Under the pieces are notes generated by a model. The model saw only the letters and a list, made by a program, of their open reading frames with translations. It was not told the DNA's origin and made no database searches. From Myxococcales bacterium (GTDB lineage Bacteria > Myxococcota_A > Polyangia > Fen-1088), in NCBI GenBank assembly GCA_031431215.1, contig JANPCZ010000037.1:6355-70354 (forward strand): a DNA stretch of 64,000 nucleotides, in the 5' to 3' direction. Position numbers and translations under genes: made by a program. Of this stretch, positions 964 to 46,659 are shown in pieces. Position 1 is the stretch's first letter. The number at the start of each line of letters is the position of its first letter.

Positions 964-981
964 AACGGAGAACAAGCGAAG

Positions 982-2208: not shown

Positions 2209-2239
2209 CCAGGAACGATCTCCCACACCCACCCACCGC

Positions 2240-2325
2240 TCCGACGGAGATCAGAAAAAAATTGACTCAAAAATTAGCGTCGTCAAAGGCCACATGCGAC
2301 GAATGAATTGAGGGGAGAAACACGC
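2240..2325 (+). promoter_or_regulatory. AT-rich ftsA-ftsZ intergenic region, likely ftsZ promoter/leader
   Basis: Locally AT-rich stretch (cagaaaaaaattgactcaaaaattagcg) in an otherwise ~70% GC context. TTGACT hexamer at ~2262. SD immediately upstream of ftsZ. Confidence 0.25.
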
Positions 2326-3930: not shown

Positions 3931-3956
3931 CCCCTCTAAGTCTAAGCCTGCGGCAC

Positions 3957-4703: not shown

Positions 4704-4792
4704 GGACTCTCCCCGCGACGATTGTTTGAAAGATTTGGCAGCTAATCTAATTTGCCCTATACGGAGCCTTGACCGCGTGTATCCTCGCCCCG

Positions 4793-5731: not shown

Positions 5732-6044
5732 AAACCTGCTTCGTGCCAACGTGGGGCTGGAAGCCAGAAGTCGCCAGCGCTGGGCCGATGTTCCGGTCGC
5801 TCAGCCGCGTCGCCACGCTGCGACCCATCGTTGCGACGAAGCTCTGTCCGAAAGGGCCCATGAAGGAGGGCTCGACCGGGCCCATGGACGTCAGTCGCAG
5901 TCGAGCGGCTGCCGGACCTTCTCGCTTGATTCCTGAACGGCCAGCTCATATTAAGTGTTGGGCGGCGACAACGACGGCGCCATGTCCGGCGGCCTGCAGA
6001 TTGCGGTTAGCCGCGCCACATTCCTGAACGAACAAGGTGAAAAG

Positions 6045-8300
6045 ATGGACGGACTTTCCGGCAGAGACAACAGGAATCCGCTTCCGGACCAGGCGCCTGC
6101 CACCTCTTGGAGAGGTCCCTACCTGCTAGCCAGAAGGGTGGTCCCGCTTTGTGCATTGGTAGCGGTTTTTATTGCCGCACCGGCAGTCGTTCTTGCCGAA
6201 ACGATAGGCGTATTTTTTGACCCGAATGTGGAGCAAATCAAGTTCGCGGCCGGCGACGTCAAGGCAGCCCTCGAGAAACACAAATTCACGGTCAGGATGC
6301 TTCCAGTTAACTCTTTGAAAGCGTCGTATGCCGACAAAAAGATTGTCATTGCCCTTGCGTCGAATGCCGCAGCCACGGCTGTGCTCGCGCTTCAGGGCGG
6401 AGGCAAGGCGGCGAAGCCGGGCGAACAGGCGTTTGCCCTTCGCACCACGGAAACGCCACAGAAATCCTACTGGGCCCTTGGCGGCGACGCGAACGGCGCA
6501 ATGTATGGCGGATTGCAGCTCGCCGAAAACATAGCATTCAACAAGTTCACCGACACATATGACACCGACGAGTCTCCGGCCATTTTGAAACGTGGAATCA
6601 AGTTGAACCTGCCGCTTGACAAAGAAAGCAGGACATACGGGAGGTCAAAGGTATCTGGAGCCAATAACGCTATTCACAACGCGTGGGACATGTCCTTCTG
6701 GAAAACCTGGTTCGATGAAATGGCGCGCAATCGATACAACGTGCTCTCAATTTGGAGCAACCATCCATTCACGTCGATGATCAAGATGCCTGAGTATCCC
6801 GACGTGGCGATACGTGACGTAACCGATTTCGATGGCAAGAAGAGAGCCATGTCGATCGACGCGAAGATTGAGTTCTGGAGGAAGGTGATGGCCTATGCGA
6901 AGTCGCGAGCCTTTGATTTCTATCTCGTCAACTGGAACATATGGACTGACGGCGCCTCGGGAAAACACGGGATCACCGACGACAAAAAGGAAGCGGCAAC
7001 CAGCAAGGCAACCATTGCGTACATGCGCAAGTGCATGACAAGACTTCTCGAGACCTATCCTGACCTCGATGGGTTTGGTGTTACTCAGGGCGAGCACATG
7101 TCGGAAAACGACAAGGACAACTCGGGATTCTTGGCAAACACGTTTGGACTAGGAATGGCCGACTATGCCAGGCGCAACCCGAAGAGGAAACTGGTCTTCA
7201 TTCATCGCTGGCACATGGCCGACTTCACCGAGATCAAGGAAAACTTTTCTGAACTCATGAAGCTTTCCAATGTGAGGTTCGAGCTGTCGTTCAAATACAG
7301 CCTGGCCCACATGTACTCGGCGGCCTTGCCGCAAAGAATGCGAGATACACACGTCGAGGCGCTTCGCGATAACAAGCTGAGATCGTGGCTCACGGTTCGT
7401 AACGATGACTTCTACTACCACAACTGGGGGGACCCAGGGTTTGCGCGCTCTTATGTTAACGGCATGATAGACAAGGGGGATTGGTTTATTGGGTATTACA
7501 TGGGATCGGATGGCTACTCCCCCACGCGGACATTTTTCAGCAAGGATAGCGTGACGCAGGGGCTCCTGGAGGTCCAGCGGCAGTGGTATATGTTCATGTT
7601 GTGGGGACGTATCTCCTATAACCCGATGATTGCCGACGCCGTATTCAGGAACCACATGGCGCTCAGGTATCCGCAAGTTGCAGCCGACCAGTTGTTCACG
7701 GCATGGAGTAAGTCTTCGAGGGGTTTGCCAAAAGTGGGCGACATGATTACGGGCACCCTGGGACGTGATGATCAATGGTGGCCCGAGGCATGCCAATCAG
7801 ACGATGGTTTCTTGACGGTCGCGGATTTTGGAAACGCAAAGGCGAACAAGGGTTCCGCCCTGAGCAGCATCGATGAGTCCGCATCCGGCCGTTTCGGTGA
7901 CAAGAAGAGCACCTACGCGGTGGCCGATGAGATCGAGACAGACGCCGTTTCGGCGCTTTCCATTGTGAACACCATGAGCGCCGGGCCAAATGCCGAGCTC
8001 GGCGTCACGCTCGGCAATATCAAGGCAATGTCCTACCTGACGGTCTATTATGCCTACAAGATCCGCGGGGCGACCCGCCTGAAGGCCAATGACAAGGAAA
8101 AGGCCAAAAATGCTGTGGGAACTGCGTACTGTTGGTGGATGAAGTACTCGAACCTGATGGATTCGATGTATCACGGCATGACGATGGCGCGCACTGCGAA
8201 TCTCGCCGACTGGCATGCACACGACAAGTCGGTTCTGAAGGAATTTGCCGATCTGGGCGGCGCCGGGACTCCTTCCTGCGAAAAGATTGCTACACAGTGA
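6045..8300 (+). CDS. Large secreted protein, possible glycoside-hydrolase-like enzyme of unknown family
   Basis: ATG 6045 preceded by AGGTGA. Long n-region then h-region VVPLCALVAVFIAAPAVVLA. ~750 aa with no recognisable catalytic motif. Lower GC than the flanks. The ORF-track start 5955 (GTG) includes an in-frame remnant similar to an internal segment. Confidence 0.5.
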   Translation: MDGLSGRDNRNPLPDQAPATSWRGPYLLARRVVPLCALVAVFIAAPAVVLAETIGVFFDPNVEQIKFAAGDVKAALEKHKFTVRMLPVNSLKASYADKKIVIALASNAAATAVLALQGGGKAAKPGEQAFALRTTETPQKSYWALGGDANGAMYGGLQLAENIAFNKFTDTYDTDESPAILKRGIKLNLPLDKESRTYGRSKVSGANNAIHNAWDMSFWKTWFDEMARNRYNVLSIWSNHPFTSMIKMPEYPDVAIRDVTDFDGKKRAMSIDAKIEFWRKVMAYAKSRAFDFYLVNWNIWTDGASGKHGITDDKKEAATSKATIAYMRKCMTRLLETYPDLDGFGVTQGEHMSENDKDNSGFLANTFGLGMADYARRNPKRKLVFIHRWHMADFTEIKENFSELMKLSNVRFELSFKYSLAHMYSAALPQRMRDTHVEALRDNKLRSWLTVRNDDFYYHNWGDPGFARSYVNGMIDKGDWFIGYYMGSDGYSPTRTFFSKDSVTQGLLEVQRQWYMFMLWGRISYNPMIADAVFRNHMALRYPQVAADQLFTAWSKSSRGLPKVGDMITGTLGRDDQWWPEACQSDDGFLTVADFGNAKANKGSALSSIDESASGRFGDKKSTYAVADEIETDAVSALSIVNTMSAGPNAELGVTLGNIKAMSYLTVYYAYKIRGATRLKANDKEKAKNAVGTAYCWWMKYSNLMDSMYHGMTMARTANLADWHAHDKSVLKEFADLGGAGTPSCEKIATQ

Positions 8301-8383
8301 CACCGCGAACGCCGGCGTGGGGTCCGCAGACCTTCGACGAGGCGAAAGTTACTCATGCTTCCCCATTCCACCCATTCCACCCC

Positions 8384-9820
8384 ATGACCCTTCCCCCCAC
8401 CCTCCGCTTCGCCTTCCTGATTTCAAGCCTGGTTTCCCTGTCCGCCGAAGCCTCACCTTCGCGGCCCAACATTCTGCTCATCGTCGCCGACGATCTTGGC
8501 TACAGCGACGTTGGCTTCCAGGGCGCCCGGGACATCCGCACGCCGCACCTCGACAGGCTCGCCGCCTCGGGCGTCCGCTGCACCGACGGCTACGTCTCCT
8601 ACCCGGTCTGCAGTCCCTCGCGCGCCGGCTTTTTGACCGGTCGCTACCAGCAACGCTTCGGCTACGAGTTTAACCCCAAGTGGGACGCCACCGCCGTCAC
8701 GCACGGCTTGCCGCTGTCCGAAACCACCCTCGCCGATTCGCTCCGCTCCGCGGGCTACACCACCGGCGCGGTCGGCAAGTGGCACCTCGGCGCCCATCCG
8801 CAATTTCATCCTAACCGCCGCGGCTTCGACGAATACTTCGGTTTCCTCGGTGGCGGCCATCGTTATCTCCCGGGTTCGGTTGCCGAAGTCGAAATCGGTG
8901 CGGGCAAGAAAGCCGCCGCGACGGCCAACACCGAGGAAACCTCCGCTATTTTGCACAACTCTACGGAGGTCCCCGAGATCGGCGAACTCACCACGCGCCT
9001 CGGCGAAGAAGCCACCGCTTCCGTCATCCGCCACGCTCGCGACCGCAAACCGTGGTTCCTCTATCTCGCCTTCAATGCCCCGCACACGCCGCTTCAAGCG
9101 CGTGAAGATATGCTCAAAAAATATGCGTCCATCACCGACGAACGCCGCCGCACTTATGCCGCGATGGTCGCCACGGTCGATGAAGCCGTGGGCCACATCG
9201 TTGCCGCCCTGGAAGCCACCGGCCAGCGCGCGCGGACCCTCATCTTCTTCATCTCCGACAATGGCGGGCCGATGACCAAGCGCAACGCCAACGCTTCCGT
9301 GAATTCCCCGCTACGCGGCCAAAAGGGCGACGTTTTCGAAGGTGGCATCCGCGTTCCCTTCCTGGTCTCCTGGCCCGCCCGTATCCGGGCTGGCCGCACT
9401 TACGCAAAACCCGTCATCTCCCTCGACGTCCTTCCCACGGCCCTCGCCGCCGCCGGAACCACGCGCGACGCCAAGCTCTCCGTGCTCGACGGCGTGAACC
9501 TCCTGCCCTTTCTCACGGGGAAGAATCCCGCCGCTCCCCACGCGCGCCTGTTCTGGCGCATGGACGGAGGCGAGGCCTTTGCTGTGCGCGAAGGAAACTG
9601 GAAGTGGATGCGCACCTATCAAAACGCTCCCCAGCTCTACGATCTTGCGACAGACCTCGGCGAATCCCGCGACCTCGCCACCGCACATCCCGAAATCGCC
9701 GCGCGCCTCGCCGCCTCCTCCGCCGACTGGAACCGCGGGCTCGTCGCCCCCGCTTTCGGCAACAATCCCTTCGGCGGCCTCATCAACCGCACCGGTTTGG
9801 AAAAAAACGCGGCGCCCTGA
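8384..9820 (+). CDS. Arylsulfatase-family sulfatase (Cys-type, formylglycine-dependent)
   Basis: Signal peptide. PNILLIVADDLGYSDVGFQG and the C-P-S-R formylglycine motif (PVCSPSRAGFLTGRY). The ORF track starts at 8132, but an in-frame ATG at 8384 begins the signal peptide. Confidence 0.85.
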   Translation: MTLPPTLRFAFLISSLVSLSAEASPSRPNILLIVADDLGYSDVGFQGARDIRTPHLDRLAASGVRCTDGYVSYPVCSPSRAGFLTGRYQQRFGYEFNPKWDATAVTHGLPLSETTLADSLRSAGYTTGAVGKWHLGAHPQFHPNRRGFDEYFGFLGGGHRYLPGSVAEVEIGAGKKAAATANTEETSAILHNSTEVPEIGELTTRLGEEATASVIRHARDRKPWFLYLAFNAPHTPLQAREDMLKKYASITDERRRTYAAMVATVDEAVGHIVAALEATGQRARTLIFFISDNGGPMTKRNANASVNSPLRGQKGDVFEGGIRVPFLVSWPARIRAGRTYAKPVISLDVLPTALAAAGTTRDAKLSVLDGVNLLPFLTGKNPAAPHARLFWRMDGGEAFAVREGNWKWMRTYQNAPQLYDLATDLGESRDLATAHPEIAARLAASSADWNRGLVAPAFGNNPFGGLINRTGLEKNAAP

Positions 9821-9860
9821 TCTCGCCTGGGTGTTGGCAGTAGATTCGTAGAGCAGACGC

Positions 9861-11174
9861 TTACAGATCGGCCAGCGGGCCGGTGCTGTTGCCGAACACG
9901 GGCATGTTGACGCCGACCGAACCAAGCATCGCCAGAAACAGATTGGCGATCGGCTGGTCCTTCTTGATGATGTGACTGCCGGGGTGCAGGGCACCGCCGC
10001 CCTTGCCTGCAAGCAGCACCGGCAAGTTGGTGTGGCGGTGCGCGTCGCCGTCCTCGATCTCGCTGGAAAAGAAAACCGCCGAGTTTTCGAGCAGCGTCCC
10101 GGTGCCCTCCGTGACAGCCTTCATCTTTCCCAGCAAGTACGCGAACTGTTCGACCTCCCACGTGCCGATGGTCTGCAGCGCCGCCAGGTTGGCGGGCGCC
10201 ATCTGATGGTGCGACAACTGGTGGTGCGCTCCGGGCACGCCGATGAACGGGTAGGTGCGGTTGCTGCCCGCGTTGCCGATCATGAACGTGGCAACGCGGA
10301 CCAGATCGCACTGAAACGCGAGCACCATGATGTCGCTCATCAAGCGAACGTGCTCTTGGTACGCCAGAGTCGCGGATGGGCGCGCTGGTATCTGGCAGCC
10401 ACTCATCATCGTTTTGTCGGCGACCTGCCGTTCGATCTCGCGGACGCCCCCCATGAACTCATCGACCTTGCGCCGGTCGGTCACGCCAAGCTTGGTCCGC
10501 AAGGCGGTCGCGTCAGCGAGCGCAAAGTCGAGCACGCTGGTCTTGTAACGTCGGCGTCGGTCTCTTTCTGCGGGCGAGACGGTCGCGTCGAGACCTTCGA
10601 ACAGCTGGTCGAACACCGTCTGGGGGTTGATGATCTTGGGCAACGGCGTGGCGGGCCCCGCCCACGAGATGCTTCGTGCGTAAGCGCAGCTGTAACCGGA
10701 ATCGCACCCGCCCGCGCTGGATCCGCCGTCGATGCCAAGCTGCAGCGACGGAAACTTGGTGGCCTTCGCAAGCGCGCCCGCGGCGATCTGATCGACCGAC
10801 ACGCCGTTCTGGATGTCCGAGCCCTCCGTCTTCTTCGGATGCGCGCAGGTGAGAAATGCTCCCGTGCCCGAGGCATGGTCGCCGGGACCGTCGGGCCGCG
10901 CGGGCAAGTTCGCCAGACCAGTGATGACCGAGACATCGGCGCGCAGTGTCTCGAGCGGTTTCAGAATTGGCGTCAGCGCGTACGCCGGGCCCGTGGTGGC
11001 TGGAGTCCAGCCCGCCATGTGGATGCCGCAAGGAACGTAGTAAAACAGCAGGCGCTTGGCCTGGGTCGCGGCGCTGGCGGTGCGCGGCGCAAGGCTTTCC
11101 AAGAACGGTAGCGCGACGGTGGCACCGGCGCTGACCAGAACGCCGCGGCGTGAACGTCGACGTTGAACGATCAT
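9861..11174 (-). CDS. DUF1501 domain protein (sulfatase-like fold, Tat signal), Planctomycete-type
   Basis: Twin-arginine N-terminus MIVQRRRSRRGVLVSAGATVALPF. ~437 aa. Overlaps the downstream DUF1592-like gene by 4 nt. This partner pairing is typical. Confidence 0.75.
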   Translation of the reverse strand: MIVQRRRSRRGVLVSAGATVALPFLESLAPRTASAATQAKRLLFYYVPCGIHMAGWTPATTGPAYALTPILKPLETLRADVSVITGLANLPARPDGPGDHASGTGAFLTCAHPKKTEGSDIQNGVSVDQIAAGALAKATKFPSLQLGIDGGSSAGGCDSGYSCAYARSISWAGPATPLPKIINPQTVFDQLFEGLDATVSPAERDRRRRYKTSVLDFALADATALRTKLGVTDRRKVDEFMGGVREIERQVADKTMMSGCQIPARPSATLAYQEHVRLMSDIMVLAFQCDLVRVATFMIGNAGSNRTYPFIGVPGAHHQLSHHQMAPANLAALQTIGTWEVEQFAYLLGKMKAVTEGTGTLLENSAVFFSSEIEDGDAHRHTNLPVLLAGKGGGALHPGSHIIKKDQPIANLFLAMLGSVGVNMPVFGNSTGPLADL

Positions 11175-35989: not shown

Positions 35990-37036
35990 TCATTCGGCCG
36001 GTCCGGCCTGGGCCGGGCGCGGATCGTCACCAGAGGCGCCCGCACCCGTTCGCGGCACGGCAAGATACTCTCCGAGCCAGGCCTTGGCCTTGTCGTCCCA
36101 CACGTCACCGTAGGTTTGCGCATAGACCAGCGCTTCCTCGCGACTACCGGGGGCGGCGCCCGCGAGGTTGTCGACTGTCCGGCGGGACAGCCCGAGCAGC
36201 GCCTTACCGTAGTGCCCGTTGGTCGCCAGCGCTGCGTCGAAAGCCCTGGCGGCGGCCTTCTGATCACCTGCGGTGAAGTGCGCCAACGCCAGACCGACCT
36301 GGGCGCGGCCCGCCGAACCTTCCGATTTCGCTGCGACATCCAGGACCGCGATGGAGTCGGCGGCGCGGCCGAGCTTTATCAGTGTCTTGCCAGCCACCAG
36401 GCGGGCCTCGGTGCCGACGGTACCCTCATCGATGGCGTAGACGCGTTCGAGATCGCGCACGCCATCCTCGAAGCGTTCTTGATCGTAGGCCAGACAGCCG
36501 AGCGCATGGCAGGCGCGGATGTACGCCTGAGTTTCCTTGCGGGTGAAGGCGTCCTTCACCTTTTCCTTGCGCAGCTTTGCAGCTTCCTGCTCGCCGCGCT
36601 CGGCCACGTCGGCAAGCGACACACGCGCCCCGTCGGTGTCGCCGGCCGACAGCTTGGCCATGCCGACGCCGACCCGGGCGTCGATGTTGTCATCCTCGAT
36701 GGCGAGGGCGGTCCGGAACTCCTTCTCGGCCGCTCCTGGCCGGCGCTGCTCGAACAAACGCCAGCCCTCGTTTATGTGCGCCCTCGCATCGGGCGCGACC
36801 GGCGGTGGCGTGGCCGCAGTCTCGTCGCCGGCCAGGTGGCACTTCTTGTACTTCTTGTCAGAGCCGCACGGGCACGGATCGTTGCGACCGGTACCAGCAA
36901 GCCGTGCCCTGGCCCCGTCGGGGCTCTCGTCCAGTACGGCCTTCGCGGCCTTCGCACTGGGTGGAGTGGACGGCGCCTTGGCGTCGGGCTTGGCGGTCTT
37001 GGCAGGGGGCTTGGCGGTGGTCTTGGTGGTGGTCAT
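35990..37036 (-). CDS. TPR-repeat protein with a SEC-C metal-binding motif
   Basis: NDPCPCGSDKKYKKCH SEC-C motif near the N-terminus, multiple TPR-like helical repeats downstream. Confidence 0.55.
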   Translation of the reverse strand: MTTTKTTAKPPAKTAKPDAKAPSTPPSAKAAKAVLDESPDGARARLAGTGRNDPCPCGSDKKYKKCHLAGDETAATPPPVAPDARAHINEGWRLFEQRRPGAAEKEFRTALAIEDDNIDARVGVGMAKLSAGDTDGARVSLADVAERGEQEAAKLRKEKVKDAFTRKETQAYIRACHALGCLAYDQERFEDGVRDLERVYAIDEGTVGTEARLVAGKTLIKLGRAADSIAVLDVAAKSEGSAGRAQVGLALAHFTAGDQKAAARAFDAALATNGHYGKALLGLSRRTVDNLAGAAPGSREEALVYAQTYGDVWDDKAKAWLGEYLAVPRTGAGASGDDPRPAQAGPAE

Positions 37037-39685: not shown

Positions 39686-40063
39686 CTATTTGCCCTCGGC
39701 TGCCAGCTGGTCTGATCGGCCGAGCGCCTCGAACAACCCCGGCAGCCGGCCGGCGAACTGGCCCTTGGTGAGCACCTCGGCGCAGCCATGCGCGCGCGCC
39801 AAGTCCATGACCTCGATGCGTTCGTGATCCACGAAACCGATGCGCGGGACACGGGCGGCCACCTGGTCGGCGCGAAGTGCGTCCAGTGCCTCGATCGCCC
39901 GGTCCAGCCGCAGATCGAGCAGCACCAGCTGTGCGGCTTGCGCCGCCTTCACCAGGGCCGCCGGATCCGGTGCGCTCACGGTCGTGACACCGACCTGTTT
40001 CGCGGCCTCGCGCAGCTTCGACGAGAACAGCATGTCTCGGATCATGTACGCAACGACGGGCAT
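39686..40063 (-). CDS. Small hypothetical protein (receiver-like?)
   Basis: 125-aa C-terminal portion of ORF 39686..40414. The N-terminal part of that ORF reads through the two tRNA genes and is spurious. Confidence 0.3.
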   Translation of the reverse strand: MPVVAYMIRDMLFSSKLREAAKQVGVTTVSAPDPAALVKAAQAAQLVLLDLRLDRAIEALDALRADQVAARVPRIGFVDHERIEVMDLARAHGCAEVLTKGQFAGRLPGLFEALGRSDQLAAEGK

Positions 40064-40226
40064 GGCGTGCGGGGTCGAGAGAAAGAAAAGGTCCCGAACA
40101 CCCGGTCGGATGGTTACCGTTGCTCCCTTCCGGGCCTGGCGGGGTTCGCCTTCTTTCCGTCGCCCGGGACCAGCGCTACTTCTGGCACACCTGCCCCTCG
40201 AACGCCAGCGTCGGGGGAGACGATTG

Positions 40227-40311
40227 AGGAGAGAGAGGGATTCGAACCCTCGGTACCTCACGGTACACACGATTTCCAATCGTGCCCCTTCGACCACTCG
40301 GGCACCTCTCC
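40227..40311 (-). tRNA. tRNA-Ser (anticodon GGA), long variable arm
   Basis: Reverse complement ggagaggtgcccgagtggtcgaaggggcacgattGGAaatcgtg...gagggttcgaatccctctctctcct folds as a cloverleaf with a long extra arm. Ends +/-2 nt. Confidence 0.85.
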
Positions 40312-40325
40312 AGTTTCTTTTCCTG

Positions 40326-40412
40326 AGGAGAGAGTGGGAGTCGAACCCACGTCGGGCGTTAACCCGAACCTGATTTCGAATCAGGCGCCTTCGGCCACTC
40401 GGCCATCTCTCC
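40326..40412 (-). tRNA. tRNA-Ser (anticodon CGA), long variable arm
   Basis: Reverse complement ggagagatggccgagtggccgaaggcgcctgattCGAaatcagg...gtgggttcgactcccactctctcct. Ends +/-2 nt. Its 5' half is duplicated at 45428..45466. Confidence 0.85.
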
Positions 40413-40860
40413 AATAATGCTTTCGAATACTTACAAAGAATGCTTCTGGGTAGTTGGGCCTCCGTTGTGCCCTCCCGACGAGTTTCGTGTCCGGTTGGAG
40501 CGTTACTGATCTGCCTGGGCCGCTCGGTGCAGTCAAGGGTTCCGCGCAGTTGGGCCCGGAGCGTTCACTACCGGAGTCCGATGAATGGCAGCAGATCGTG
40601 GCACTGAATCAGGCGCACTCGGAAACATGGCCTCCGGCCGCCGCCCTGCTCGCGCTTGAGCACCGCTCTTCCGCGACCATCATGCACGACGGTTCGGCGA
40701 GCGGATGCGCATCGACCCGGGGCGCGGTCGGGTTCGGCGGCCTACATTTCTCGGAGTACCGGCGGGAGCGCAGGTCGCTTCCTCCGCTTGTTCTGGCTGC
40801 CCGTTCCCCGCATTCCACCGGTCCATCATCGCGGCGTCGCAGCCGCCGGTGCTGGTGATC

Positions 40861-43293
40861 TCAAGGTTCAAGGCGATAGGTCCGCTCGATGATGGCGGCG
40901 ACATCGGGCCCCTTCCAGTGGGGCTTGATCCACCTGTTGCGCCGGTCCTTCCACGACCGCGCCGGGCGCCGCCAGTGGCCGCGCACCATGAACCGGTGGA
41001 GGAGCTGGCGCCCGCTTGGGACGCGCTCCAGCTCCTGCATGCGCCTGACCTCGGAGATGCTTATCGTTCCCGGAAGAAAGAACACCTCGTCGGAGCTGAA
41101 GACCGGCGGCGGAGCGCCGGGTGCGCGAAGCACCTTCGTACGGTCGGTGGAGGGCCGCCGGACCTGGGGCTCCACCCCTGCGCTCGTGGCGTAGAGGATG
41201 GCGCTGAGCGCAAGATGGAGAAGCGCCGGCAGGGGCCGGGAACGCGTTCCGACCGCCACCTCTCGGCCGTTCCGGTTCCCGTTCGCCGCCGGTGACGCCG
41301 CCGGTGTGCCGAGCTCGATCGGCCGGCCGTCGGTGATGGGCAGATCGTGCTCGAGGAGGTAGGGCGGATCCGCTCCCAGGGCGTCCGCGGCGACCCGCAG
41401 GTGGAGCACACGACCGTCGCCGTGCGGCTCCCCACTGACGTAGATCGTGAGAACGCGCAGGATCTGCCCGGCGAGCGGACAGTCGGCGGCCCCGGCCAGG
41501 TGGCGCTCGGCCAGGGAGAGGGCGTGCCTGTCGGTGAACACGATCGCGAAGCAGGCGAACGGCAGGCGCAGATCGTCTCCGACCACGTCGAGGTCCGTGT
41601 GCACGAGCATGTAGGCGAGCGTTGGGTCCATCCAGAAAGTCTTCCGGCGATGCAGCTCGAAGTTGACCGCGCAGAACAGGCGAGCCGCGAGCACTGCCTC
41701 GGACGTCGCCGCGAAAGCGGCGGGCGCGGCCTTCTCGCGCTCGATCTCGGCCCGGAGGAACCGCCGGACCTCCAGATCCGCATCCAGGTCACCGCGATCG
41801 ACCAGGCTCGAGCTGTCGTCGAAGCTGGGCGCCGCGCGTGCGGCAGCGGCGAGCCTTTCGCACAGCTCGTCCCAGCTAGGCGCCGCCTGCGCCCACCGCT
41901 CGTGCGCGAGCGGCGGCGGCCGCGCGGGCGCGGCCTCTTCGAGCCCGAGGTCCGCCCACATCCACGAGGGATCGAACGCCGGCTCGTTCCGCTTGAGGGA
42001 CGTTTGGTAGAAGCCTTCGAGGTCGCGAATGAGCCCCGCGACGCGGCTCTTGAGCGCGGGATCCTTGGCTGCCTCACGCGGCGTGTGCTCGTCGAGGGCG
42101 GGGATCTTCTCGTCGAGCCACTTCCGGTAGTGGCGCGCGTAATGATCCAGCGTCAGCTCCTCGCGGATCTCGGGTGGAATCGCGTCGCTCTGGTCCACCG
42201 GCTCTTCCTTCGGCCCTCCTCGCAGTTCCTCCTTGAGTGACAGGGTGGGATCCTCGTGCGAAGTCGCCCGGTGTACCGCCGCGTCGCCTGCGAGATCCTC
42301 TACGAGCGCCCGCCCGCGCTCCCCACGCTTCGCGGAGTTGGCTTCCAGCGTGAGGGTCGCCCCCCGGAGCTTCAGGTGGCCGAGGACCACGGGCTCGCCG
42401 GACGCGTTCGGCCCCGTCCAGCGCCAGACGGCCTTCTGGCCGTCGCGCTCGAGCGGTGGTGCGGCCTCGAGCGCCGGGCCGAGGCGCGCCGCGTCCCGAA
42501 CGTCGAAGTGGACGCGGGTGAAGAGGATGTCGTCGCCGTCCTGGTTCCGGAGGTGCGGGATCGGCGGGTCGACGAGCGTCCGGAACCACGCCGAGTGGAA
42601 GAAGGGCGGCATCTCCTTCCAGAAGCGATCGGCAGGGGCGCGCGGGTTCTCGCGTCGGAACGTCTCGCGGTGCGATTCGAGCTGGGGAACGACGGCCTGT
42701 CGGATCAGGAACGGTATCGGGAGGACGCCCGCCTCCATCTCCGGCTGCCCCGAGGCGCCGCACGCGATGATGCGCGCCGCCAACATGTCGGCGCGGGCGA
42801 TCTGGCGGGAGCCGAGCCGCTCGTGAACCGAGACGACCGAGCCGTCGAGCACGTCGCGCAGCGTGAGCGACAGACCGGGCCTGACGTCGTCAACCTGCCA
42901 GAGGCGCGTGCAGCTCGCGCGGGCGAGTGTCAGGTACTCGCGCTCTCCCGTCGTCAGCGACGGATCCTCCGCCAGGAGCCGCTCGACCACCAGCCGGCCG
43001 TCCGCGAGCGGTCGATCGAACCAGAACCACCCGTCGAACACGCCGGTACTGAGCTGCTCCCAGTGCTCGTCGAGGTCCACGTCCTTCTGCACGCCCTCAC
43101 CCCAGAACTCGTCGAAGGCCGCGTCGTCTTCGCCTTCGAGCACCTCTTCGCTGAATCGCTCGAGCTTGTCGAGGGCCGAGCGGCGATCAGCTTGGGTGAA
43201 GCGCCTCGCCGCCTCCGCCTTCGGTAGGCAGCAACGCTTGTACTTGAGCCCGCTGCCGCACGGGCAGGGTGCATTCCGGCCAGGCTTCCCCAA
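40861..43293 (-). CDS. Large hypothetical protein (810 aa) with an N-terminal SEC-C motif, function unknown
   Basis: N-terminus MGKPGRNAPCPCGSGLKYKRCC (SEC-C). The C-terminus ends with a basic motif FMVRGHWRRPARSWKDRRNRWIKPHWKGPD. No catalytic motif recognised. Last gene of the islet operon. Confidence 0.5.
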   Translation of the reverse strand: MGKPGRNAPCPCGSGLKYKRCCLPKAEAARRFTQADRRSALDKLERFSEEVLEGEDDAAFDEFWGEGVQKDVDLDEHWEQLSTGVFDGWFWFDRPLADGRLVVERLLAEDPSLTTGEREYLTLARASCTRLWQVDDVRPGLSLTLRDVLDGSVVSVHERLGSRQIARADMLAARIIACGASGQPEMEAGVLPIPFLIRQAVVPQLESHRETFRRENPRAPADRFWKEMPPFFHSAWFRTLVDPPIPHLRNQDGDDILFTRVHFDVRDAARLGPALEAAPPLERDGQKAVWRWTGPNASGEPVVLGHLKLRGATLTLEANSAKRGERGRALVEDLAGDAAVHRATSHEDPTLSLKEELRGGPKEEPVDQSDAIPPEIREELTLDHYARHYRKWLDEKIPALDEHTPREAAKDPALKSRVAGLIRDLEGFYQTSLKRNEPAFDPSWMWADLGLEEAAPARPPPLAHERWAQAAPSWDELCERLAAAARAAPSFDDSSSLVDRGDLDADLEVRRFLRAEIEREKAAPAAFAATSEAVLAARLFCAVNFELHRRKTFWMDPTLAYMLVHTDLDVVGDDLRLPFACFAIVFTDRHALSLAERHLAGAADCPLAGQILRVLTIYVSGEPHGDGRVLHLRVAADALGADPPYLLEHDLPITDGRPIELGTPAASPAANGNRNGREVAVGTRSRPLPALLHLALSAILYATSAGVEPQVRRPSTDRTKVLRAPGAPPPVFSSDEVFFLPGTISISEVRRMQELERVPSGRQLLHRFMVRGHWRRPARSWKDRRNRWIKPHWKGPDVAAIIERTYRLEP

Positions 43294-43581
43294 GCGTCCT
43301 CTCCGTTGACTCTAGCCCAACTCTAGCCCCAACCCGCTACCGCCGCTCTCGCACGCGACCGCCTGGTTTCTCGAATCATCCCCCATGGCGGGCCCATCGG
43401 CGGTAGGCATCGATCCTCGAGCATCGTGTAGAAGCCGCTAACCTGCTCCGACTCGTCATGGGCGTCGACCGTCGCTTCCTCGATGAGTTCATCGAGCCAG
43501 GCTGCGGAGAGTTCCTCGCGCGGCGCCTGCCTCCCGTTGGTTGGTCTCGTCCTGCGCGCCATCGCCCCCTCACTCGTCCCG

Positions 43582-44208
43582 TCACATGAGATCGAAGAAC
43601 GTCTCGGTGCCGATATGCCGGAGATGCTGGTCGAGAAGGTCCTCGAGAGGTCCATGAGCCAGCGGCCAGGACCAGCCGCCCGAGCCCCGGTAGGTCATCC
43701 TCTTGGCGCAGTAGCCGTCCGCCCCTGCAGGAGCGAACTTCATCACGGGCGCGTACTGGGTACGGGCGCGGAGACCGGCCATCCGCCGCTGGACCCACTC
43801 CGGATCCATGCGGTGCGCAGCTGCAATCGCGGCAATCCCGTCCACTGTGAAAGCACCGATGGGCTCGAAGACGACGATCTCGCCCTTGACCGCATCGGCT
43901 CGATGGAAGCGCAGATGTGGATGGCGAGCCAAATCGGCCCGGACGAGATCGAGATCCTGGGCAGGCACGGCGCGAGCGTGGGGATCGAATCGGGCGACCG
44001 AAACGACCGCGTTGACGCTTTCGGTAAACTGGAATCCGCGCGGCATCGCGGCGAGCGCCCCCCCGCCCACCGTCTTGGCGACGAAGTACCGGGCTTTGCC
44101 GGTTTTCGTCTTGCCGGCGTGCAGATAGTAGACGTCGCCCCGGCGGTTCGCGTACGACAGAGCCGAGCCGTCCGGCGAGATCGAGCCGGCGAGGGGTGGG
44201 GCTCGCAT
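43582..44208 (-). CDS. Hypothetical protein (208 aa), islet operon gene 3
   Basis: Start chosen at ATG 44208, which leaves a 2-nt gap to the upstream gene stop. The ORF-track start 44406 would overlap it by ~200 nt. No recognisable domain. Confidence 0.4.
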   Translation of the reverse strand: MRAPPLAGSISPDGSALSYANRRGDVYYLHAGKTKTGKARYFVAKTVGGGALAAMPRGFQFTESVNAVVSVARFDPHARAVPAQDLDLVRADLARHPHLRFHRADAVKGEIVVFEPIGAFTVDGIAAIAAAHRMDPEWVQRRMAGLRARTQYAPVMKFAPAGADGYCAKRMTYRGSGGWSWPLAHGPLEDLLDQHLRHIGTETFFDLM

Positions 44209-44210
44209 GC

Positions 44211-44759
44211 CTACCAATCCACCAGCGGCGGCAGGCTGGGCAGAGCCTTCTGCAGGGCCTTCGCGCGTTTCTCCACGGTGTAGGGATCGAAACCCGCGAA
44301 TCCCTTCTGTGGCCAATACCGTCCGTGTGCCAGCCAGTGCCGCCACTTGAGCACGCCCTTGAAGTCGCCGACTACCTTCGTGGCGCCCGGGTGGGCCGCC
44401 CTCCATGCGTCCAGCAGATCCTCGAGTCGGGTCCGGACGCCGTGGGTTCGCCAGAGCTTCTGGAAGTTGGCGGCTGCAACACTCTTGGACCCGGTCGCGG
44501 GAGCGCGAACCTGCCGATCGAAGTCGATGCGCAGGATCGCCTCGAAGCTCGCGACCAGGGCGAGCGACACCTCGAGCGCCAGTTCCGTCGCCATCTGCTT
44601 GAGAACATCTGGCAGTTGTTGCGGCGTCATCTTGTAGAACGGGCTGTCGGATGACACCGCCGCCGCGATGTCGGGATCCCGAAGTGCGGACTCCACAAGG
44701 GCAAGAACTTCCAGGCTCCGGTTGTAGTAGAGCCAGATGTCGCGCGGCGCGGTCGCCAT
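44211..44759 (-). CDS. Hypothetical protein (182 aa), islet operon gene 2, contains an R-x4-H (HEPN-like) motif
   Basis: KWRHWLAHGRYW near the C-terminus (R140-x4-H145). 4-nt gap to the upstream gene. No other recognisable motif. Confidence 0.4.
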   Translation of the reverse strand: MATAPRDIWLYYNRSLEVLALVESALRDPDIAAAVSSDSPFYKMTPQQLPDVLKQMATELALEVSLALVASFEAILRIDFDRQVRAPATGSKSVAAANFQKLWRTHGVRTRLEDLLDAWRAAHPGATKVVGDFKGVLKWRHWLAHGRYWPQKGFAGFDPYTVEKRAKALQKALPSLPPLVDW

Positions 44760-44763
44760 GATC

Positions 44764-45213
44764 TCAGGACAGCAAGAACTGGAGAGCCTCGGACAGCGTC
44801 TCCTCGGTCAACTCTCGCCCTTTGTCCTTCGGGTCCGGCGTGGAGAGCATCCATTTGTTCTGTCGCGTGCGGATCAGGACCCGCGACTTCGGGCCGTGGC
44901 CCATGTCGATTCGACCGGTGCCTCCGAAGACCACGCGCGCGATGGGCTCGACGGACACGACGCGGACTCCCGACTGGATCTGCAGCACCGGAGCCTGGTA
45001 CACGCCCAGTGCTTCCTCGCGGACGACGATCTCGCCGCGAGCGAGCTTCAGCAAACCCTCGTCAGCCGCGGGCTTGAGCCAGGTCGAGATCTGATCGAGC
45101 AGGTCGTTGATGGCAGCGAGCCACTCCGCCTTCGTCTTCCCGAGGTCCATCGACTTCGAGGTGTTGTCTCGCTGGTGACGCCGAAGGAAATCGGTCAACC
45201 GTTCTGTCGCCAT
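44764..45213 (-). CDS. Hypothetical protein (149 aa), islet operon gene 1
   Basis: First gene of the tightly packed minus-strand operon 45213->40861. No recognisable domain. Confidence 0.4.
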   Translation of the reverse strand: MATERLTDFLRRHQRDNTSKSMDLGKTKAEWLAAINDLLDQISTWLKPAADEGLLKLARGEIVVREEALGVYQAPVLQIQSGVRVVSVEPIARVVFGGTGRIDMGHGPKSRVLIRTRQNKWMLSTPDPKDKGRELTEETLSEALQFLLS

Positions 45214-45427
45214 GTGCGGATGTCTCCTCGTACTCGCTCGCCGTCCTTGGAAGCCCTTAGTTTAGCGCCGCTGATCCCGGCTCGCCGGCGTGATCGCAGA
45301 ACGGGTTCGGGGAGCCTTTTTCGTTGTGCCCTTCTTGTGCCCTACGGATCGAAACCGCCACGCGCCCTCGACGGAGATAGTGAAACCATCTGAAACGACA
45401 AGCGACCGGAATCATTCATGGTCGTCG

Positions 45428-45470
45428 TCTTTCGAATCAGGCGCCTTCGGCCACTCGGCCATCTCTCCAA
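45428..45470 (-). repeat. Partial duplicate of tRNA-Ser(CGA): 5' half (positions 1-39) plus upstream flank. Right-hand direct repeat of the islet.
   Basis: 43/43 nt identity with 40374..40416. Contains ggagagatggccgagtggccgaaggcgcctgattcgaaa in reverse complement. Confidence 0.7.
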
Positions 45471-45555
45471 TATGAACCCGAATACTTAGCACCTTCGGGT
45501 CGGACAGATCGACCGAAACTGCCGCGGCGTGGCTGGCCTTGGGGGGGCGGCTTGG

Positions 45556-46659
45556 TCAGACGGGGGCGTCTTCGAGAGCTTCCATCTTCTTGCGCCGGGC
45601 GCGCTCGACGAACCAGACGATCACGATCGAGATGTTGTAAAGCGCGTACAGCGGGCCGGCCAGCAACAGCTGCGAGATGACGTCGGGGCTCGGCGTCAGC
45701 ACGCCGCCGACCACGGCCGACAGCACCAGCGCGTATTTGTTGAAGCGCCACAGGCCGCCGGCCGAGATCAGGCCCAGCAGGCCCAGCAGCGACAGCACCA
45801 CCGGCAACTCGAACGCAACGCCGCAACCGGCGAGCATCATGATCTGGAAGTTCGACACCGCCTCCATGCTCTGCATGGGATCGATCCTGAGGCGAATCTT
45901 CTGGTCCTCGTCGACCTCGCCCATGGCTGTCCCAGGATCGGGTTTGGCGGGATCGGGTTTGGTGGGATCGGGTTTGGTGACCTCGGCCGCCACTGCGACG
46001 CCGGCGGTGTCCTTGCGGGCTGCGCGGGCCTTGATGCGTTCCGCTCGCGCCTTGGCCGCGGCCTCGTGCTGCTGCTCGCACTCTTTCATCTGCTCGTCGG
46101 GCATCGGCATCGCGATCAGGTAGTACGACGCGGTCTGGGTCAGCGCGAAGTAACCGAACAGCGCGCCGCCGACGAAGCACAGGGCGGTCGCCGCGGTCAC
46201 GCCGCCGGCCAGCTTCTTTTCCTTGCGGTAAAGCCCGGGCGCGATGAACTTCCACAGCTCCCAAAAGATGAAGGGGCTGGCCACCAGGATGCTCATGATG
46301 ATGGCGAGCTTGAAGTAGCACCAGAACGGTTCCGTCGGTGACGTGTAGACGAACCCGACCTTGTTCGGGTCCAGGCACAGCTCGACCATCGCCTTCTGGA
46401 TCGGGCGGGTCAGGAGGACGAAGAAATCCTTGGCGAAGATCAGCGAACCGATCAGCGCCACCACGAACGCGATGCCAGCGTTGCGCAGCCGCGTGCGCAG
46501 CTCCGACAGGTGCTCGAGCAGCGACATGCGCTTGGCATCGAGAGCATCGTCGCCGTCCTCGACGCTGTCGCTCGGCGTGCTGTCGCCTTGCGTGCTGTCG
46601 CGGGGCGCTCCGTCGGACACCCCTTCGATCTGCTTCTTCTCGTCGTCGCTCGAACTCAA
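45556..46659 (-). CDS. tatC: Twin-arginine translocase subunit TatC, with N-terminal acidic extension and an inserted loop carrying TKPDP repeats
   Basis: LEHLSELRTRL start region, six TM helices. Loop with TKPDPTKPDPAKPDP. A shorter alternative start (MSLLEHL) lies at 46527. Confidence 0.85.
   Translation of the reverse strand: MSSSDDEKKQIEGVSDGAPRDSTQGDSTPSDSVEDGDDALDAKRMSLLEHLSELRTRLRNAGIAFVVALIGSLIFAKDFFVLLTRPIQKAMVELCLDPNKVGFVYTSPTEPFWCYFKLAIIMSILVASPFIFWELWKFIAPGLYRKEKKLAGGVTAATALCFVGGALFGYFALTQTASYYLIAMPMPDEQMKECEQQHEAAAKARAERIKARAARKDTAGVAVAAEVTKPDPTKPDPAKPDPGTAMGEVDEDQKIRLRIDPMQSMEAVSNFQIMMLAGCGVAFELPVVLSLLGLLGLISAGGLWRFNKYALVLSAVVGGVLTPSPDVISQLLLAGPLYALYNISIVIVWFVERARRKKMEALEDAPV

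What the first reader, a model, noticed from the sequence alone, without database searches (positions are those of the whole stretch)
40374..45470. tRNA-Ser-anchored ~5 kb islet bounded by direct repeats, carrying a four-gene operon of unassignable proteins
A 43-nt perfect direct repeat (extending imperfectly ~20 nt further) lies at 40374..40416 and 45428..45470. It consists of the 5' half of tRNA-Ser(CGA) plus its upstream flank, which is the classic footprint of site-specific insertion at a tRNA gene. Unusually, the duplicated part is the tRNA 5' half rather than the 3' end. The 5 kb between the repeats holds only a compact minus-strand operon (45213->40861) of four proteins (149, 182, 208 and 810 aa). 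I cannot place any of them in a known family, and no integrase or transposase is present. The islet sits between housekeeping tRNAs and tatC. This is the strongest candidate in the window for an undescribed accessory, possibly defence, system.
Basis: partly seen in the sequence, partly recalled or inferred. Interest (0 to 1): 0.8.

Follow-up and report, generated by a model that had tools for sequence, protein, structure and literature searches.

The report
Integrase-less islet in tRNA-Ser gene
A 5 kb piece of foreign DNA sits inside a serine tRNA gene of a soil myxobacterium; it has lost (or never had) its own integration enzyme, and it carries two separate small gene modules of the kind bacteria and their mobile DNA use against each other, not one new four-gene system.

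Summary
It consists of nt 1-39 of tRNA-Ser(CGA) plus 4 upstream nt and ends exactly at the 3' edge of the anticodon loop.

The same layout recurs in a related genome (L007). Eleven metagenome contigs hold a displaced tRNA-Ser(CGA) 5' half, and 10 of them (all but the truncated L030) follow it with a conserved ~115-nt element end with paired octamer motifs. So the islet belongs to a family of Polyangia integrative elements that use the 5' half of this tRNA. I found no description of this family. No integrase lies in the islet, and no empty site could be retrieved.

The "four-gene operon" is five ORFs in two separable modules:
- **p149 + p182.** p182 has a HEPN fold with an invariant Rx4H motif. 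The pair recurs in 7 other contexts, 5 of them viral contigs.
- **p79.** A truncated CcbP-like remnant lying between p208 and p810.

This is a new variant of known kinds, of moderate interest.

The parts
45473..45500 (-). Native chromosomal flank upstream of the displaced tRNA 5' half. TAAGTATTCG (45479-45488) is a possible -10 region of the original tRNA promoter.
   Evidence: The same 10-mer lies at the same distance upstream of the intact tRNA (40424-40433). TAAG(G/T)A-like boxes sit at the same place upstream of the displaced halves in the metagenome loci. The promoter role is inferred; the consensus scan found no sigma-70 match.
45430..45472 (-). DR-B: displaced tRNA-Ser(CGA) 5' half (nt 1-39) plus 4 nt upstream. 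It ends at the 3' edge of the anticodon loop.
   Evidence: 100% identical to 40374-40416; sequence read.
45305..45429 (-). Conserved element end (P'-arm-like). It holds CGTTTCAG 45390-45397, GGTTTCAC 45380-45387, CTCCGTCGAG 45367-45376, and tandem GGGCACAA at 45335-45342 and 45324-45331.
   Evidence: Alignable with L007 and with 10 of 11 metagenome junctions. The two octamers change together between elements. No conserved RNA structure was found. Coordinates.
44764..45213 (-). p149: partner protein of the HEPN gene, fold unknown. Member of a large unannotated family of ~150-aa proteins.
   Evidence: Homologues lie directly upstream of p182 homologues in L021, L024, L054 and L057-L060. The family has 1,252 representative clusters at E<=1e-3. 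No Pfam, PADLOC or PDB match.
44211..44759 (-). p182: HEPN-fold protein with an invariant RHWLAHGRYW (Rx4H) motif; putative RNase toxin or effector.
43582..44208 (-). p208: conserved ~200-aa protein of unknown fold that recurs beside or near SEC-C-motif proteins. Its start overlaps the p182 stop codon by 1 nt (p182 ends 44211, p208 starts 44208).
   Evidence: 151 relatives, none with a Pfam domain. It lies next to an 800-aa p810 homologue in L022/L023, next to a 452-aa SEC-C protein in L061, and 1.4 kb from a DUF7986+SEC-C protein in L062. No PDB or viral-contig match.
43323..43562 (-). p79: truncated remnant of a CcbP-like (PF11535) gene.
   Evidence: 70% identical over aa 1-56 to a full-length 120-aa gene in L036, which matches Calci_bind_CcbP at E 4e-6. 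The rest of p79 matches L036 in another frame, ~150 nt further on.
40861..43293 (-). p810: N-terminal SEC-C zinc motif (aa 6-24), a ~450-aa N-terminal half also found alone on plasmids, an AcrVA2-like fold, and a C-terminal HRFMVRGHWR...WI.P.WKGP motif.
40606..40632 (-). Degenerate (78%) tRNA-5'-half-like stretch. It could be an older att remnant or a chance match.
   Evidence: the repeat finder family D2, which shares an exact 11-mer GAATCAGGCGC. Not resolved.
40417..40560 (-). Element end next to the intact tRNA (P-arm-like, and presumably the promoter that the element supplies). It holds GGCCCAAC 40549-40556, CCCTTGAC 40532-40539, GGGCACAA 40465-40472, GGCCCAAC 40453-40460 and TAAGTATTCG 40424-40433.
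   Evidence: Blocks conserved with the L007 end. All three exact GGGCACAA octamers in the 64-kb window lie at the two islet ends. Coordinates.
40374..40416 (-). DR-A: the 5' half of the intact tRNA plus 4 nt upstream.
40325..40412 (-). Intact tRNA-Ser(CGA), the integration target.
   Evidence: ARAGORN; Rfam tRNA 59.8 bits.
40226..40311 (-). tRNA-Ser(GGA), immediately downstream in the same RNA gene cluster.
40083..40175 (-). SRP (4.5S) RNA gene, last member of the RNA cluster. It is followed by the only minus-strand terminator-like site in 40000-45700 (40110-40093).
   Evidence: Rfam RF00169, 55 bits against a gathering score of 40; terminator scan.

Best explanation
The 5 kb between the repeats is an integrase-less member of a family of integrative elements from Polyangia (Myxococcota).

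**How the islet arose.**
- Shown: these elements sit in the tRNA-Ser(CGA) gene, and the junction lies at the 3' edge of the anticodon loop.
- Inferred: insertion was by site-specific recombination. The element's attachment site carries a promoter plus the tRNA 5' half, not the usual 3' part. After integration the gene is rebuilt from the element-borne promoter and 5' half joined to the chromosomal 3' half. The original promoter and 5' half are displaced to the far end (45430-45500).
- Shown: both element ends keep conserved direct-repeat motifs, with paired GGGCACAA-type octamers. Inferred: these are arm-type binding sites. The islet is therefore either a decayed remnant or an element that a recombinase encoded elsewhere could still move.
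- Inferred: because all five ORFs point the same way as the displaced tRNA promoter, with no terminator-like site in between, they are probably transcribed from that promoter.

**What the cargo is.** It is two independent modules, not one system.
- p149 + p182 is a bicistronic pair. p182 has a HEPN fold and an Rx4H motif (shown). It is most likely an RNase toxin or abortive-infection effector held in check by p149 (inferred).
- p208 + p810 is the second pair. p810 joins a SecA-type SEC-C zinc knuckle to an AcrVA2-like body (shown). That zinc-knuckle domain binds SecB and ribosomes in SecA. The most likely action is AcrVA2-like: recognition of a target protein as it is being made, followed by loss of its mRNA, with p208 as a partner or regulator (inferred, weakest step).
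- A truncated CcbP-like gene lies between p208 and p810 (shown).
For: **Repeat geometry.**

**Replication in a second genome.** Contig L007 carries a p810 orthologue (85% aa, 88% nt). It begins at tRNA nt 11-40 and ends at tRNA nt 1-33 of its own variant of tRNA-Ser(CGA). That implies a 37-nt flanking repeat and the same layout with different cargo.

**Family-wide element end.**
- Eleven metagenome contigs hold a tRNA-Ser(CGA) 5' half not followed by the 3' anticodon stem. Ten of them continue with the same conserved ~115-nt sequence; L030 is truncated.
- The paired octamers co-vary between elements: GGGCACAA x2, CGGAACAA x2, CAACAGAA x2 and CAAAACAA/CAAACAA.
- The octamer also occurs at the tRNA-proximal end in the window and in L007.
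- RNAalifold finds no structure or covariation (-1.1 kcal/mol). That favours DNA binding sites over an RNA.

**Composition and expression.**
- Tetranucleotide deviation peaks locally over the islet (z +1.75), while GC3 stays within the host range.
- There is no minus-strand terminator-like site between 45500 and the SRP RNA terminator.

**Modularity of the cargo.**
- The p149+p182 pair recurs in L021, L024 and five IMG/VR loci.
- p208 lies next to SEC-C proteins in L022/L023 and L061, and 1.4 kb from one in L062.
- p810 relatives occur alone in other contexts, for example between PhdYeFM antitoxin genes in L005.

**p182 is HEPN.**

**p810 is SEC-C plus AcrVA2-like.**
- Direct tests.
- Most relatives carry precomputed Pfam hits to PF26125 AcrVA2-like (weak).
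- AcrVA2 mechanism and its spread on mobile elements: bioRxiv 10.1101/2022.11.29.518452 and PMC13131331.
- The SecA metal-binding domain binds SecB and ribosomes: abstracts of bioRxiv 10.1101/613315 and PMC6620043.

**Other cargo in the family is also conflict-type.** L028 has Trypco2 plus a trypsin-like peptidase. L032 has a ThiF-nitroreductase fusion and an IS4 transposase.
Against: **Origin of the islet.**
- No integrase was found in the islet, at any of the 13 displaced-half ends, or by a crude motif scan of the window. The recombinase is hypothetical.
- No empty site or circular junction could be retrieved. The nearest genomes in the reference set share only tatB-tatC synteny and have no tRNA there. 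The only other contig with this TatC breaks at the repeat.
- Only two tRNA-proximal ends were seen, and both carry p810 next to the arm. p810 might therefore be more than passive cargo.
- GC content is unremarkable.

**Function of the cargo.**
- The AcrVA2 link rests on fold. No HMM alignment to the AcrVA2 chain was obtained. The C-terminal 744-810 stretch that carries GHWR is modelled at low confidence.
- p149 and p208 have no assignable fold.
- Promoter use is inferred; the consensus scan found no sigma-70 site.
Confidence: 0.68

Rival explanations
1. One integrated four- or five-gene defence system: all the proteins work together as a single new anti-phage system delivered as a unit.
For: The genes are tightly packed, co-oriented and partly overlapping. 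They were assembled as one 5-gene block in the source sample. None matches a PADLOC system model beyond the SEC-C motif.
Against: No other locus holds all four genes. The two pairs recur separately. The 85%-identical p810 orthologue in the same kind of islet has entirely different neighbours. A truncated gene remnant sits in the middle of the 'operon'.
Confidence: 0.12
2. Not a mobile element: a local duplication of the tRNA 5' region followed by ordinary gene gain. On this view it is a lineage-specific hypervariable spot kept by homologous recombination between the repeats.
For: There is no integrase, no empty site was observed, and GC and GC3 are host-like. The p810 orthologue is at the same position in two genomes.
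Against: All 13 independent junctions break at the same nucleotide of the anticodon loop. Twelve of them continue into a homologous 115-nt end with co-varying paired octamers, in different chromosomal surroundings and with different cargo. The tRNA-proximal end carries matching motifs.
Confidence: 0.08
3. The displaced half plus the conserved 115 nt is a functional RNA (a tRNA-derived leader or regulatory RNA) that controls the downstream genes, rather than an attachment site.
For: It lies directly behind a tRNA promoter and is conserved over ~115 nt in 12 loci.
Against: RNAalifold gives -1.1 kcal/mol, 6 pairs and no compensatory change. Conservation takes the form of direct repeats that change in concert. 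No Rfam family matches apart from the tRNAs and SRP RNA.
Confidence: 0.04
4. p810 is itself the integration or mobility protein of the element, a new kind of recombinase or targeting factor, which would explain why it sits beside the tRNA-proximal arm in both cases seen.
Against: Relatives of p810 at 51-58% identity in L002, L005, L022 and L063 have no tRNA and no arm motif nearby. No recombinase fold or motif was detected. The best structural match is AcrVA2.
Confidence: 0.04

Closest known systems
tRNA-gene genomic islands made by tyrosine integrases (Islander-type islands; Williams 2002, from my own knowledge; Islander database PMC4383910)
   Same: An intact tRNA gene and a displaced fragment lie in direct orientation and delimit the island. 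The break is in the anticodon loop, a classical sublocation. The ends carry arm-like repeated motifs.
   Different: The 5' half and promoter are duplicated, not the 3' part. There is no integrase in the 5 kb. The island is very small.
CIMEs (cis-mobilizable elements) and other integrase-less satellites that keep attL/attR and depend on a recombinase in trans; IMEX elements that use host XerCD (from my own knowledge)
   Same: Both att-like ends are retained, there are no recombination genes, and the cargo is small.
   Different: No cognate integrase-bearing element has been identified. Mobilisation is untested. The target is a tRNA anticodon loop, not dif or an ICE att site.
HEPN toxin-antitoxin / abortive-infection modules (HEPN-MNT such as SO_3166/SO_3165, 5yep; RnlA/LsoA; AbiA C-terminal HEPN)
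   Same: p182 has a HEPN fold and an invariant Rx4H motif. It sits in a two-gene cassette that is also found on viral contigs.
   Different: The partner p149 is not an MNT nucleotidyltransferase and belongs to an unannotated family. No curated HEPN family is matched. Gene order is partner first, HEPN second.
AcrVA2 / FinQ family (Pfam PF26125 AcrVA2-like; PDB 7CI1/7CI2)
   Same: AcrVA2 is the best structural match by two methods. A conserved C-terminal H-x-R-containing motif (GHWR) is shared with AcrVA2-sized viral proteins. Relatives are linked to mobile elements and toxin-antitoxin islands.
   Different: p810 is 810 aa against ~320 aa. It has an extra N-terminal SEC-C motif and a ~450-aa module with a weak Xre/MbcA/ParS-C-like stretch. 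It is paired with p208. Sequence similarity to AcrVA2 itself is undetectable. No Cas12a link was examined.
SEC-C (SecA metal-binding domain) proteins such as YecA and YchJ
   Same: The CPCGSG..K..CC zinc knuckle is a confident Pfam match.
   Different: The motif is at the N-terminus of a large multidomain protein rather than at the C-terminus of a small one.

Membership tests
tRNA-integrated genomic island (integrase-made) | An intact tDNA and a cognate end fragment lie in direct orientation on the correct side (a 5' fragment upstream of the tDNA). | tested here: met
   The configuration rule is quoted from PMC4383910.
tRNA-integrated genomic island (integrase-made) | An integrase gene lies inside the island. 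| tested here: not met
   None of the five ORF products matches a recombinase in Pfam, NCBIfam, PHROGs or PADLOC. No crude tyrosine-recombinase motif occurs in the window.
tRNA-integrated genomic island (integrase-made) | An empty site exists in relatives, or excision products can be detected. | not testable with these tools
   Reference genomes are too distant and have no tRNA beside tatC. The exact-TatC look-up returned only the same sample, and that contig breaks at the repeat.
CIME / integrase-less satellite | Both att ends are retained, with conserved recombination-site sequence. | tested here: met
   The displaced-half end is conserved in 12 of 13 loci. The tRNA-proximal end is conserved between the window and L007. 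The octamer motif is shared between the two ends.
CIME / integrase-less satellite | A related autonomous element with the same att sites and its own integrase exists, and it mobilises the islet in trans. | not tested
   No integrase-bearing relative was retrieved. Only displaced-half ends were fetched from metagenomes, and there were no viral hits.
HEPN superfamily (p182) | An R-x(4-6)-H motif is conserved. | tested here: met
   H141-R147 (HWLAHGR) is invariant and R140 nearly invariant in 17 sequences, giving RHWLAHGR.
HEPN superfamily (p182) | The protein has the all-alpha HEPN fold. | tested here: met
HEPN superfamily (p182) | The protein matches a curated HEPN family model. | tested here: not met
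   Only HEPN_MAE_28990 at E 0.065, in 1 of 17 members.
HEPN-MNT toxin-antitoxin | The partner is a minimal nucleotidyltransferase. | tested here: not met
   p149 and 27 relatives have no nucleotidyltransferase hit.
AcrVA2 / FinQ (PF26125) | The protein has the AcrVA2 fold. | tested here: met
AcrVA2 / FinQ (PF26125) | The C-terminal HxR catalytic-type motif (H286/R288 in AcrVA2) is conserved. | tested here: inconclusive
   VRGHWR is invariant in the p810 family and in 264-393-aa viral proteins. No alignment to the AcrVA2 chain could be obtained, and this segment is modelled at pLDDT <50.
AcrVA2 / FinQ (PF26125) | The protein scores against the Pfam PF26125 model. | tested here: inconclusive
   The model is not in the local Pfam copy. 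Many relatives carry precomputed hits flagged weak, but none is recorded for the window protein itself.
AcrVA2 / FinQ (PF26125) | The protein inhibits Cas12a, or lowers a target mRNA in a translation-dependent way. | not testable with these tools
   This needs an experiment.
SEC-C motif proteins (PF02810) | The protein has the Cys-rich zinc knuckle CxCxSGx8CC/H. | tested here: met
   Pfam E 4.1e-9, 36.6 bits against a cut-off of 20.4, at aa 6-24. SecA and YchJ peptides are hit in the PDB.
Known anti-phage defence systems (PADLOC 2023) | One or more of the proteins match a system model. | tested here: not met
   Only SEC-C-motif-length hits of p810 to E2 / E1-E2 models, and nothing for the other four. 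The p149 family also has none.

The most novel reading that the evidence does not exclude
Two linked ideas remain open.

- This family of elements duplicates the tRNA 5' half on purpose. Each integration then places its variable cargo directly behind a strong chromosomal tRNA promoter, while the element supplies a replacement promoter for the tRNA. That would make it a promoter-capturing gene-delivery platform for conflict genes, moved by a recombinase encoded elsewhere.
- Within it, p208 + p810 would be a new two-component system. The SEC-C knuckle would dock an AcrVA2-like sensor at the ribosome, where it reads nascent chains of an invader or a rival element and destroys their mRNA.
Probability: 0.2. 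Interest if true: 0.75.

Novelty: new variant of a known kind. Interest (0 to 1): 0.55.

Why it matters
**The element family.** It defines a recurrent, easily recognisable element family in Polyangia that uses the uncommon 5'-half polarity at tRNA-Ser(CGA). The signature is the tRNA 5' half, then CTTACGGTTTCA..TCCGTCGAG, then paired octamers. It can serve as a marker for finding variable conflict-gene cargo in a poorly studied, large-genome phylum.

**The AcrVA2 question.** The AcrVA2 work left open what AcrVA2 relatives do in hosts without Cas12a. Here there is a large, well conserved family: 303 hits to an ~800-aa architecture that joins a SecA-type zinc knuckle (a domain that binds ribosomes and SecB in SecA) to an AcrVA2-like body, with a recurrent 200-aa partner. 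That gives a concrete, testable candidate for translation-coupled targeting outside anti-CRISPR.

**New families.** It also adds a new HEPN family and its partner family of at least 1,250 clusters. Neither is in Pfam or PADLOC.

Tried and rejected
**Empty-site test.** A TatC-based scan of 185,579 species genomes gave only distant Polyangia MAGs (45-64% identity) with no tRNA beside tatC. The exact-TatC look-up gave only the same sample. The test could not be done.

**Logan contigs as circles.** I considered reading contigs L001 (5073 nt) and L007 (6618 nt) as circular forms. I rejected this. Their lengths and ends are what a k=31 graph gives for a unique stretch flanked by a repeat.

**Phage origin.**
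- There is no match to p810 in 50,697 phage records.
- The tRNA half is absent from IMG/VR.
- p208 is absent from IMG/VR.

**Fusion partners.** The DUF7309/DUF6930 N-terminal extensions of the 1,140-aa fusion relatives are unrelated to p208 and p79.

**Sequence link to AcrVA2.** No hit from the full-length profile, a viral homologue or a C-terminal profile against the PDB.

**p149 and p208 annotation.** Pfam, PADLOC, NCBIfam, PHROGs and PDB profiles gave nothing.

**Structured-RNA reading of the conserved end.** Rejected.

**Integrase at the displaced-half end of relatives.** None was found in L028-L038.

**Literature on 5'-half polarity.** Williams 2002 is not held. Mageeney 2020 was uninformative.

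**GC content as evidence of foreign origin.** Flat. Only the tetranucleotide signal is mildly raised.

Full report
**1. Observation**

ARAGORN finds two minus-strand genes: tRNA-Ser(GGA) at 40226-40311 and tRNA-Ser(CGA) at 40325-40412. Rfam confirms both. It also finds an SRP (4.5S) RNA gene at 40083-40175 directly downstream.

The repeat finder reports a perfect 43-nt direct repeat at 40374-40416 and 45430-45472. Read on the tRNA strand, the repeat is 4 nt of upstream flank plus tRNA nt 1-39. It stops exactly after the anticodon loop TTCGAAA, and the 3' strand of the anticodon stem is not duplicated. Beyond the repeat both copies share TAAGTATTCG, about 12 nt upstream of the tRNA 5' end, with a 1-nt indel.

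Between the copies lie co-oriented minus-strand ORFs of 149, 182, 208 and 810 aa. tatC (45556-46659) follows the distal copy.

**2. Source and the empty-site test**

TatC relatives place the window in Polyangia (Myxococcota) MAGs. The nearest reference genomes are only 45-64% identical in TatC. They share just tatB-tatC and have no tRNA next to tatC.

Exact look-ups of TatC and p810 return only short contigs from the same sample. These contigs end 30 nt into the repeat, as a k=31 assembly graph must. So they say nothing about empty sites or circles.

**3. The islet is one of a family**

The closest p810 relative (85% aa, 88% nt) lies on a 6,618-nt contig, L007. That contig starts with nt 11-40 and ends with nt 1-33 of that organism's own tRNA-Ser(CGA) 5' half, which differs at 3 positions from the window's. 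By the same assembly logic this means a 37-nt flanking repeat. A second genome therefore has the same layout. Its cargo is different: ORFs of 97, 127, 745 (another SEC-C protein) and 195 aa, and then the p810 orthologue next to the intact tRNA.

I then scanned metagenomes for the tRNA-Ser(CGA) 5' half not followed by the 3' anticodon stem. Eleven contigs matched. Ten of them, all but the truncated L030, continue after GAAA into the same ~115-nt sequence seen in the window and in L007. It reads:
- a variable ~25 nt;
- CTTACGGTTTCA..CCGTTTCAC;
- TCCGTCGAG;
- GTTCCG..CCGT;
- two tandem octamers.

The octamers are GGGCACAA in most elements. They are CGGAACAA x2 in L007, CAACAGAA x2 in L035 and CAAAACAA/CAAACAA in L038. 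The two copies therefore change together.

In the window and in L007 the same octamer type also lies 40-65 nt upstream of the intact tRNA. All three exact GGGCACAA in the 64-kb window are at the two islet ends. RNAalifold finds no structure and no covariation in the conserved end.

Conserved direct repeats that co-vary and occur at both ends are what arm-type protein-binding sites of attL/attR look like. This is my inference; no binding protein is known.

Upstream flanks and downstream cargo differ between loci. L028 carries Trypco2 plus a trypsin-like peptidase. L032 carries a ThiF-nitroreductase fusion and an IS4 transposase. L036 carries a CcbP-like gene. No integrase lies at any displaced-half end, none lies in the islet, and a crude motif scan of the window found none.

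**4. How the islet most likely arose and is expressed**

Shown:
- The break point is fixed in the anticodon loop.
- The intact gene and a displaced 5' half lie in direct orientation.
- Both ends are conserved.

Inferred: a site-specific (probably tyrosine) recombinase joined an attP carrying [arm, promoter, tRNA 5' half, loop, arm] to the chromosomal gene. The intact tRNA then runs from an element-supplied promoter, and the native promoter plus 5' half now face the cargo.

Islander's rules accept a 5' fragment upstream of a tDNA as a legitimate configuration (PMC4383910). The polarity is therefore uncommon but not unknown.

All five ORFs are co-oriented with the displaced promoter. The only minus-strand terminator-like site in 40000-45700 is after the SRP RNA. 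Read-through expression of the cargo from the tRNA promoter is therefore plausible but untested.

On composition:
- GC is flat.
- GC3 is within the host range.
- Tetranucleotide distance shows a local peak (z +1.75).

This fits exchange among related high-GC hosts.

Without an integrase, the islet is either a remnant or a CIME-like element that depends on a recombinase in trans.

**5. The cargo is two modules plus a remnant**

*(a) p149 + p182.*
- The p182 family (17 clusters) has RHWLAHGRYW conserved (H141-R147 invariant, R140 and W149 nearly so), plus a conserved ASFEAILR motif.
- No curated HEPN model is matched.
- A p149 homologue lies directly upstream of the p182 homologue in L021, L024 and five of eight IMG/VR loci.
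- p149 belongs to a large family of 1,252 representative clusters with no Pfam, PADLOC or PDB match.
- Most likely this is a HEPN RNase toxin or effector with a non-MNT partner.

*(b) p208 + p810.*
- p810 has a confident SEC-C motif at aa 6-24.
- It has 303 relatives; the 120 best listed are mostly ~800 aa and 45-59% identical.
- Many residues are invariant, including VRGHWR near the C-terminus.
- Relatives carry precomputed weak PF26125 'AcrVA2-like' and DUF7986 hits.
- Thirteen of 30 relatives show a weak Xre/MbcA/ParS-C stretch.
- The N-terminal 450 aa has 27-30% identical stand-alone homologues on 144 plasmids, for example beside the resolvase of a Tn3-family transposon on Sphingobium pTK1.
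- The C-terminal HRFMVRGHWR..WI.P..KGP motif is shared with 264-393-aa viral proteins.
- A direct HMM link to the AcrVA2 chain failed. Equivalence of GHWR with AcrVA2's functional H286/R288 therefore stays open.
- p208 (151 relatives, no Pfam) sits immediately upstream of an 800-aa p810 homologue in L022/L023, immediately downstream of a 452-aa SEC-C protein in L061, and 1.4 kb from a DUF7986+SEC-C protein in L062.
- p810 relatives also occur without p208, for example between PhdYeFM antitoxin genes in L005.

*(c) p79.* It is 70% identical over its first 56 aa to a full-length 120-aa CcbP-like gene in L036, then loses the frame. It is a truncated remnant.

*Mechanism for p810 (inferred).* AcrVA2 binds the nascent N-terminus of Cas12a and triggers loss of its mRNA. 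Its relatives are spread on mobile elements in hosts that lack Cas12a. The SecA metal-binding domain binds SecB and ribosomes. A SEC-C knuckle fused to an AcrVA2-like body suggests a ribosome-docked sensor of nascent chains, with p208 as partner. None of this is shown.

**6. Comparison with known systems, and novelty**

- As an element, it works like a tRNA-integrated island. It fails the integrase criterion, and it fits the definition of an integrase-less, att-bearing derivative (CIME-like). Mobilisation is untested.
- As cargo, p182 is a HEPN protein of a family without a curated model.
- p810 is an enlarged, SEC-C-bearing relative of AcrVA2/FinQ by fold.
- Nothing matches a PADLOC system.
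- I found no description of a tRNA-Ser(CGA) 5'-half element family in Polyangia. My literature search was limited.

Overall this is a new variant of known kinds. It is not a categorically new system and not a single four-gene operon.

**7. Verdict**

I put confidence at about 0.85 that this is a site-specifically inserted, mobile-element-derived islet, and at about 0.7 that the cargo is two independent conflict modules. The proposed molecular actions are much less certain. Interest: 0.55.

Noticed in passing
window 40083-40175 (-): An SRP (4.5S) RNA gene lies directly downstream of the two tRNA-Ser genes (Rfam RF00169, 55 bits). It is followed by the only minus-strand terminator-like site of the region (40110-40093). 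The islet therefore sits at the head of a tRNA-tRNA-SRP RNA cluster.
   Followed up: partly
window ~3000-11000: This is the most compositionally deviant part of the window (GC 0.59-0.61 against ~0.67; tetranucleotide z up to +3.1). It encodes an esterase, a 781-aa protein with no Pfam hit, a sulfatase and a DUF1552 protein. It may be another acquired region.
   Followed up: partly
window 35990-37036 (-): A second SEC-C-motif protein (SEC-C at aa 51-68 plus TPR repeats) lies ~4 kb from the islet. SEC-C motifs seem common in this lineage.
   Followed up: no
window 45935-45986 (inside tatC): Three tandem 15-nt units (GGATCGGGTTTGGCG-type) encode a KPDPTKPDPAKPDP repeat. They lie inside a TatC segment that does not align with the relatives' TatC (query residues ~185-255).
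   Followed up: no
window 40606-40632: A degenerate (78%) copy of part of the tRNA 5' half lies between the p810 stop and the intact tRNA. It may be the scar of an older insertion. L007 has a similar GAGTCAGGCGCAC stretch in the opposite orientation at ~6412-6431.
   Followed up: partly
L007 884-3121: The sister islet carries a second, different SEC-C protein (745 aa) preceded by two small overlapping ORFs (97 and 127 aa). It could be another SEC-C-centred module.
   Followed up: no
L028 629-1479; L032 (stored coordinates 860-4350): Other members of the element family carry Trypco2 plus a trypsin-like peptidase, or a ThiF-nitroreductase fusion followed by an IS4 transposase, right behind the displaced tRNA half.
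   Followed up: partly
L026 4459-6422 (Sphingobium sp. TKS plasmid pTK1): A 453-aa homologue of the p810 N-terminal half overlaps the end of the resolvase gene of a Tn3-family transposon. The module appears to travel as a transposon passenger on many alphaproteobacterial plasmids (144 records).
   Followed up: partly
L005 7233-7870 and 10546-11156: In one MAG a p810 homologue is bracketed on both sides by PhdYeFM-type antitoxin gene pairs. L022 shows the p208+p810 pair bracketed by two PIN-toxin pairs. These look like small toxin-antitoxin / conflict islands.
   Followed up: no
L003/L008-type fusions (P0003, P0008, P0011): Some p810 relatives are ~1,140 aa, with an N-terminal DUF7309/DUF6930 extension unrelated to p208 or p79. 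Different accessory domains therefore attach to the same core.
   Followed up: partly
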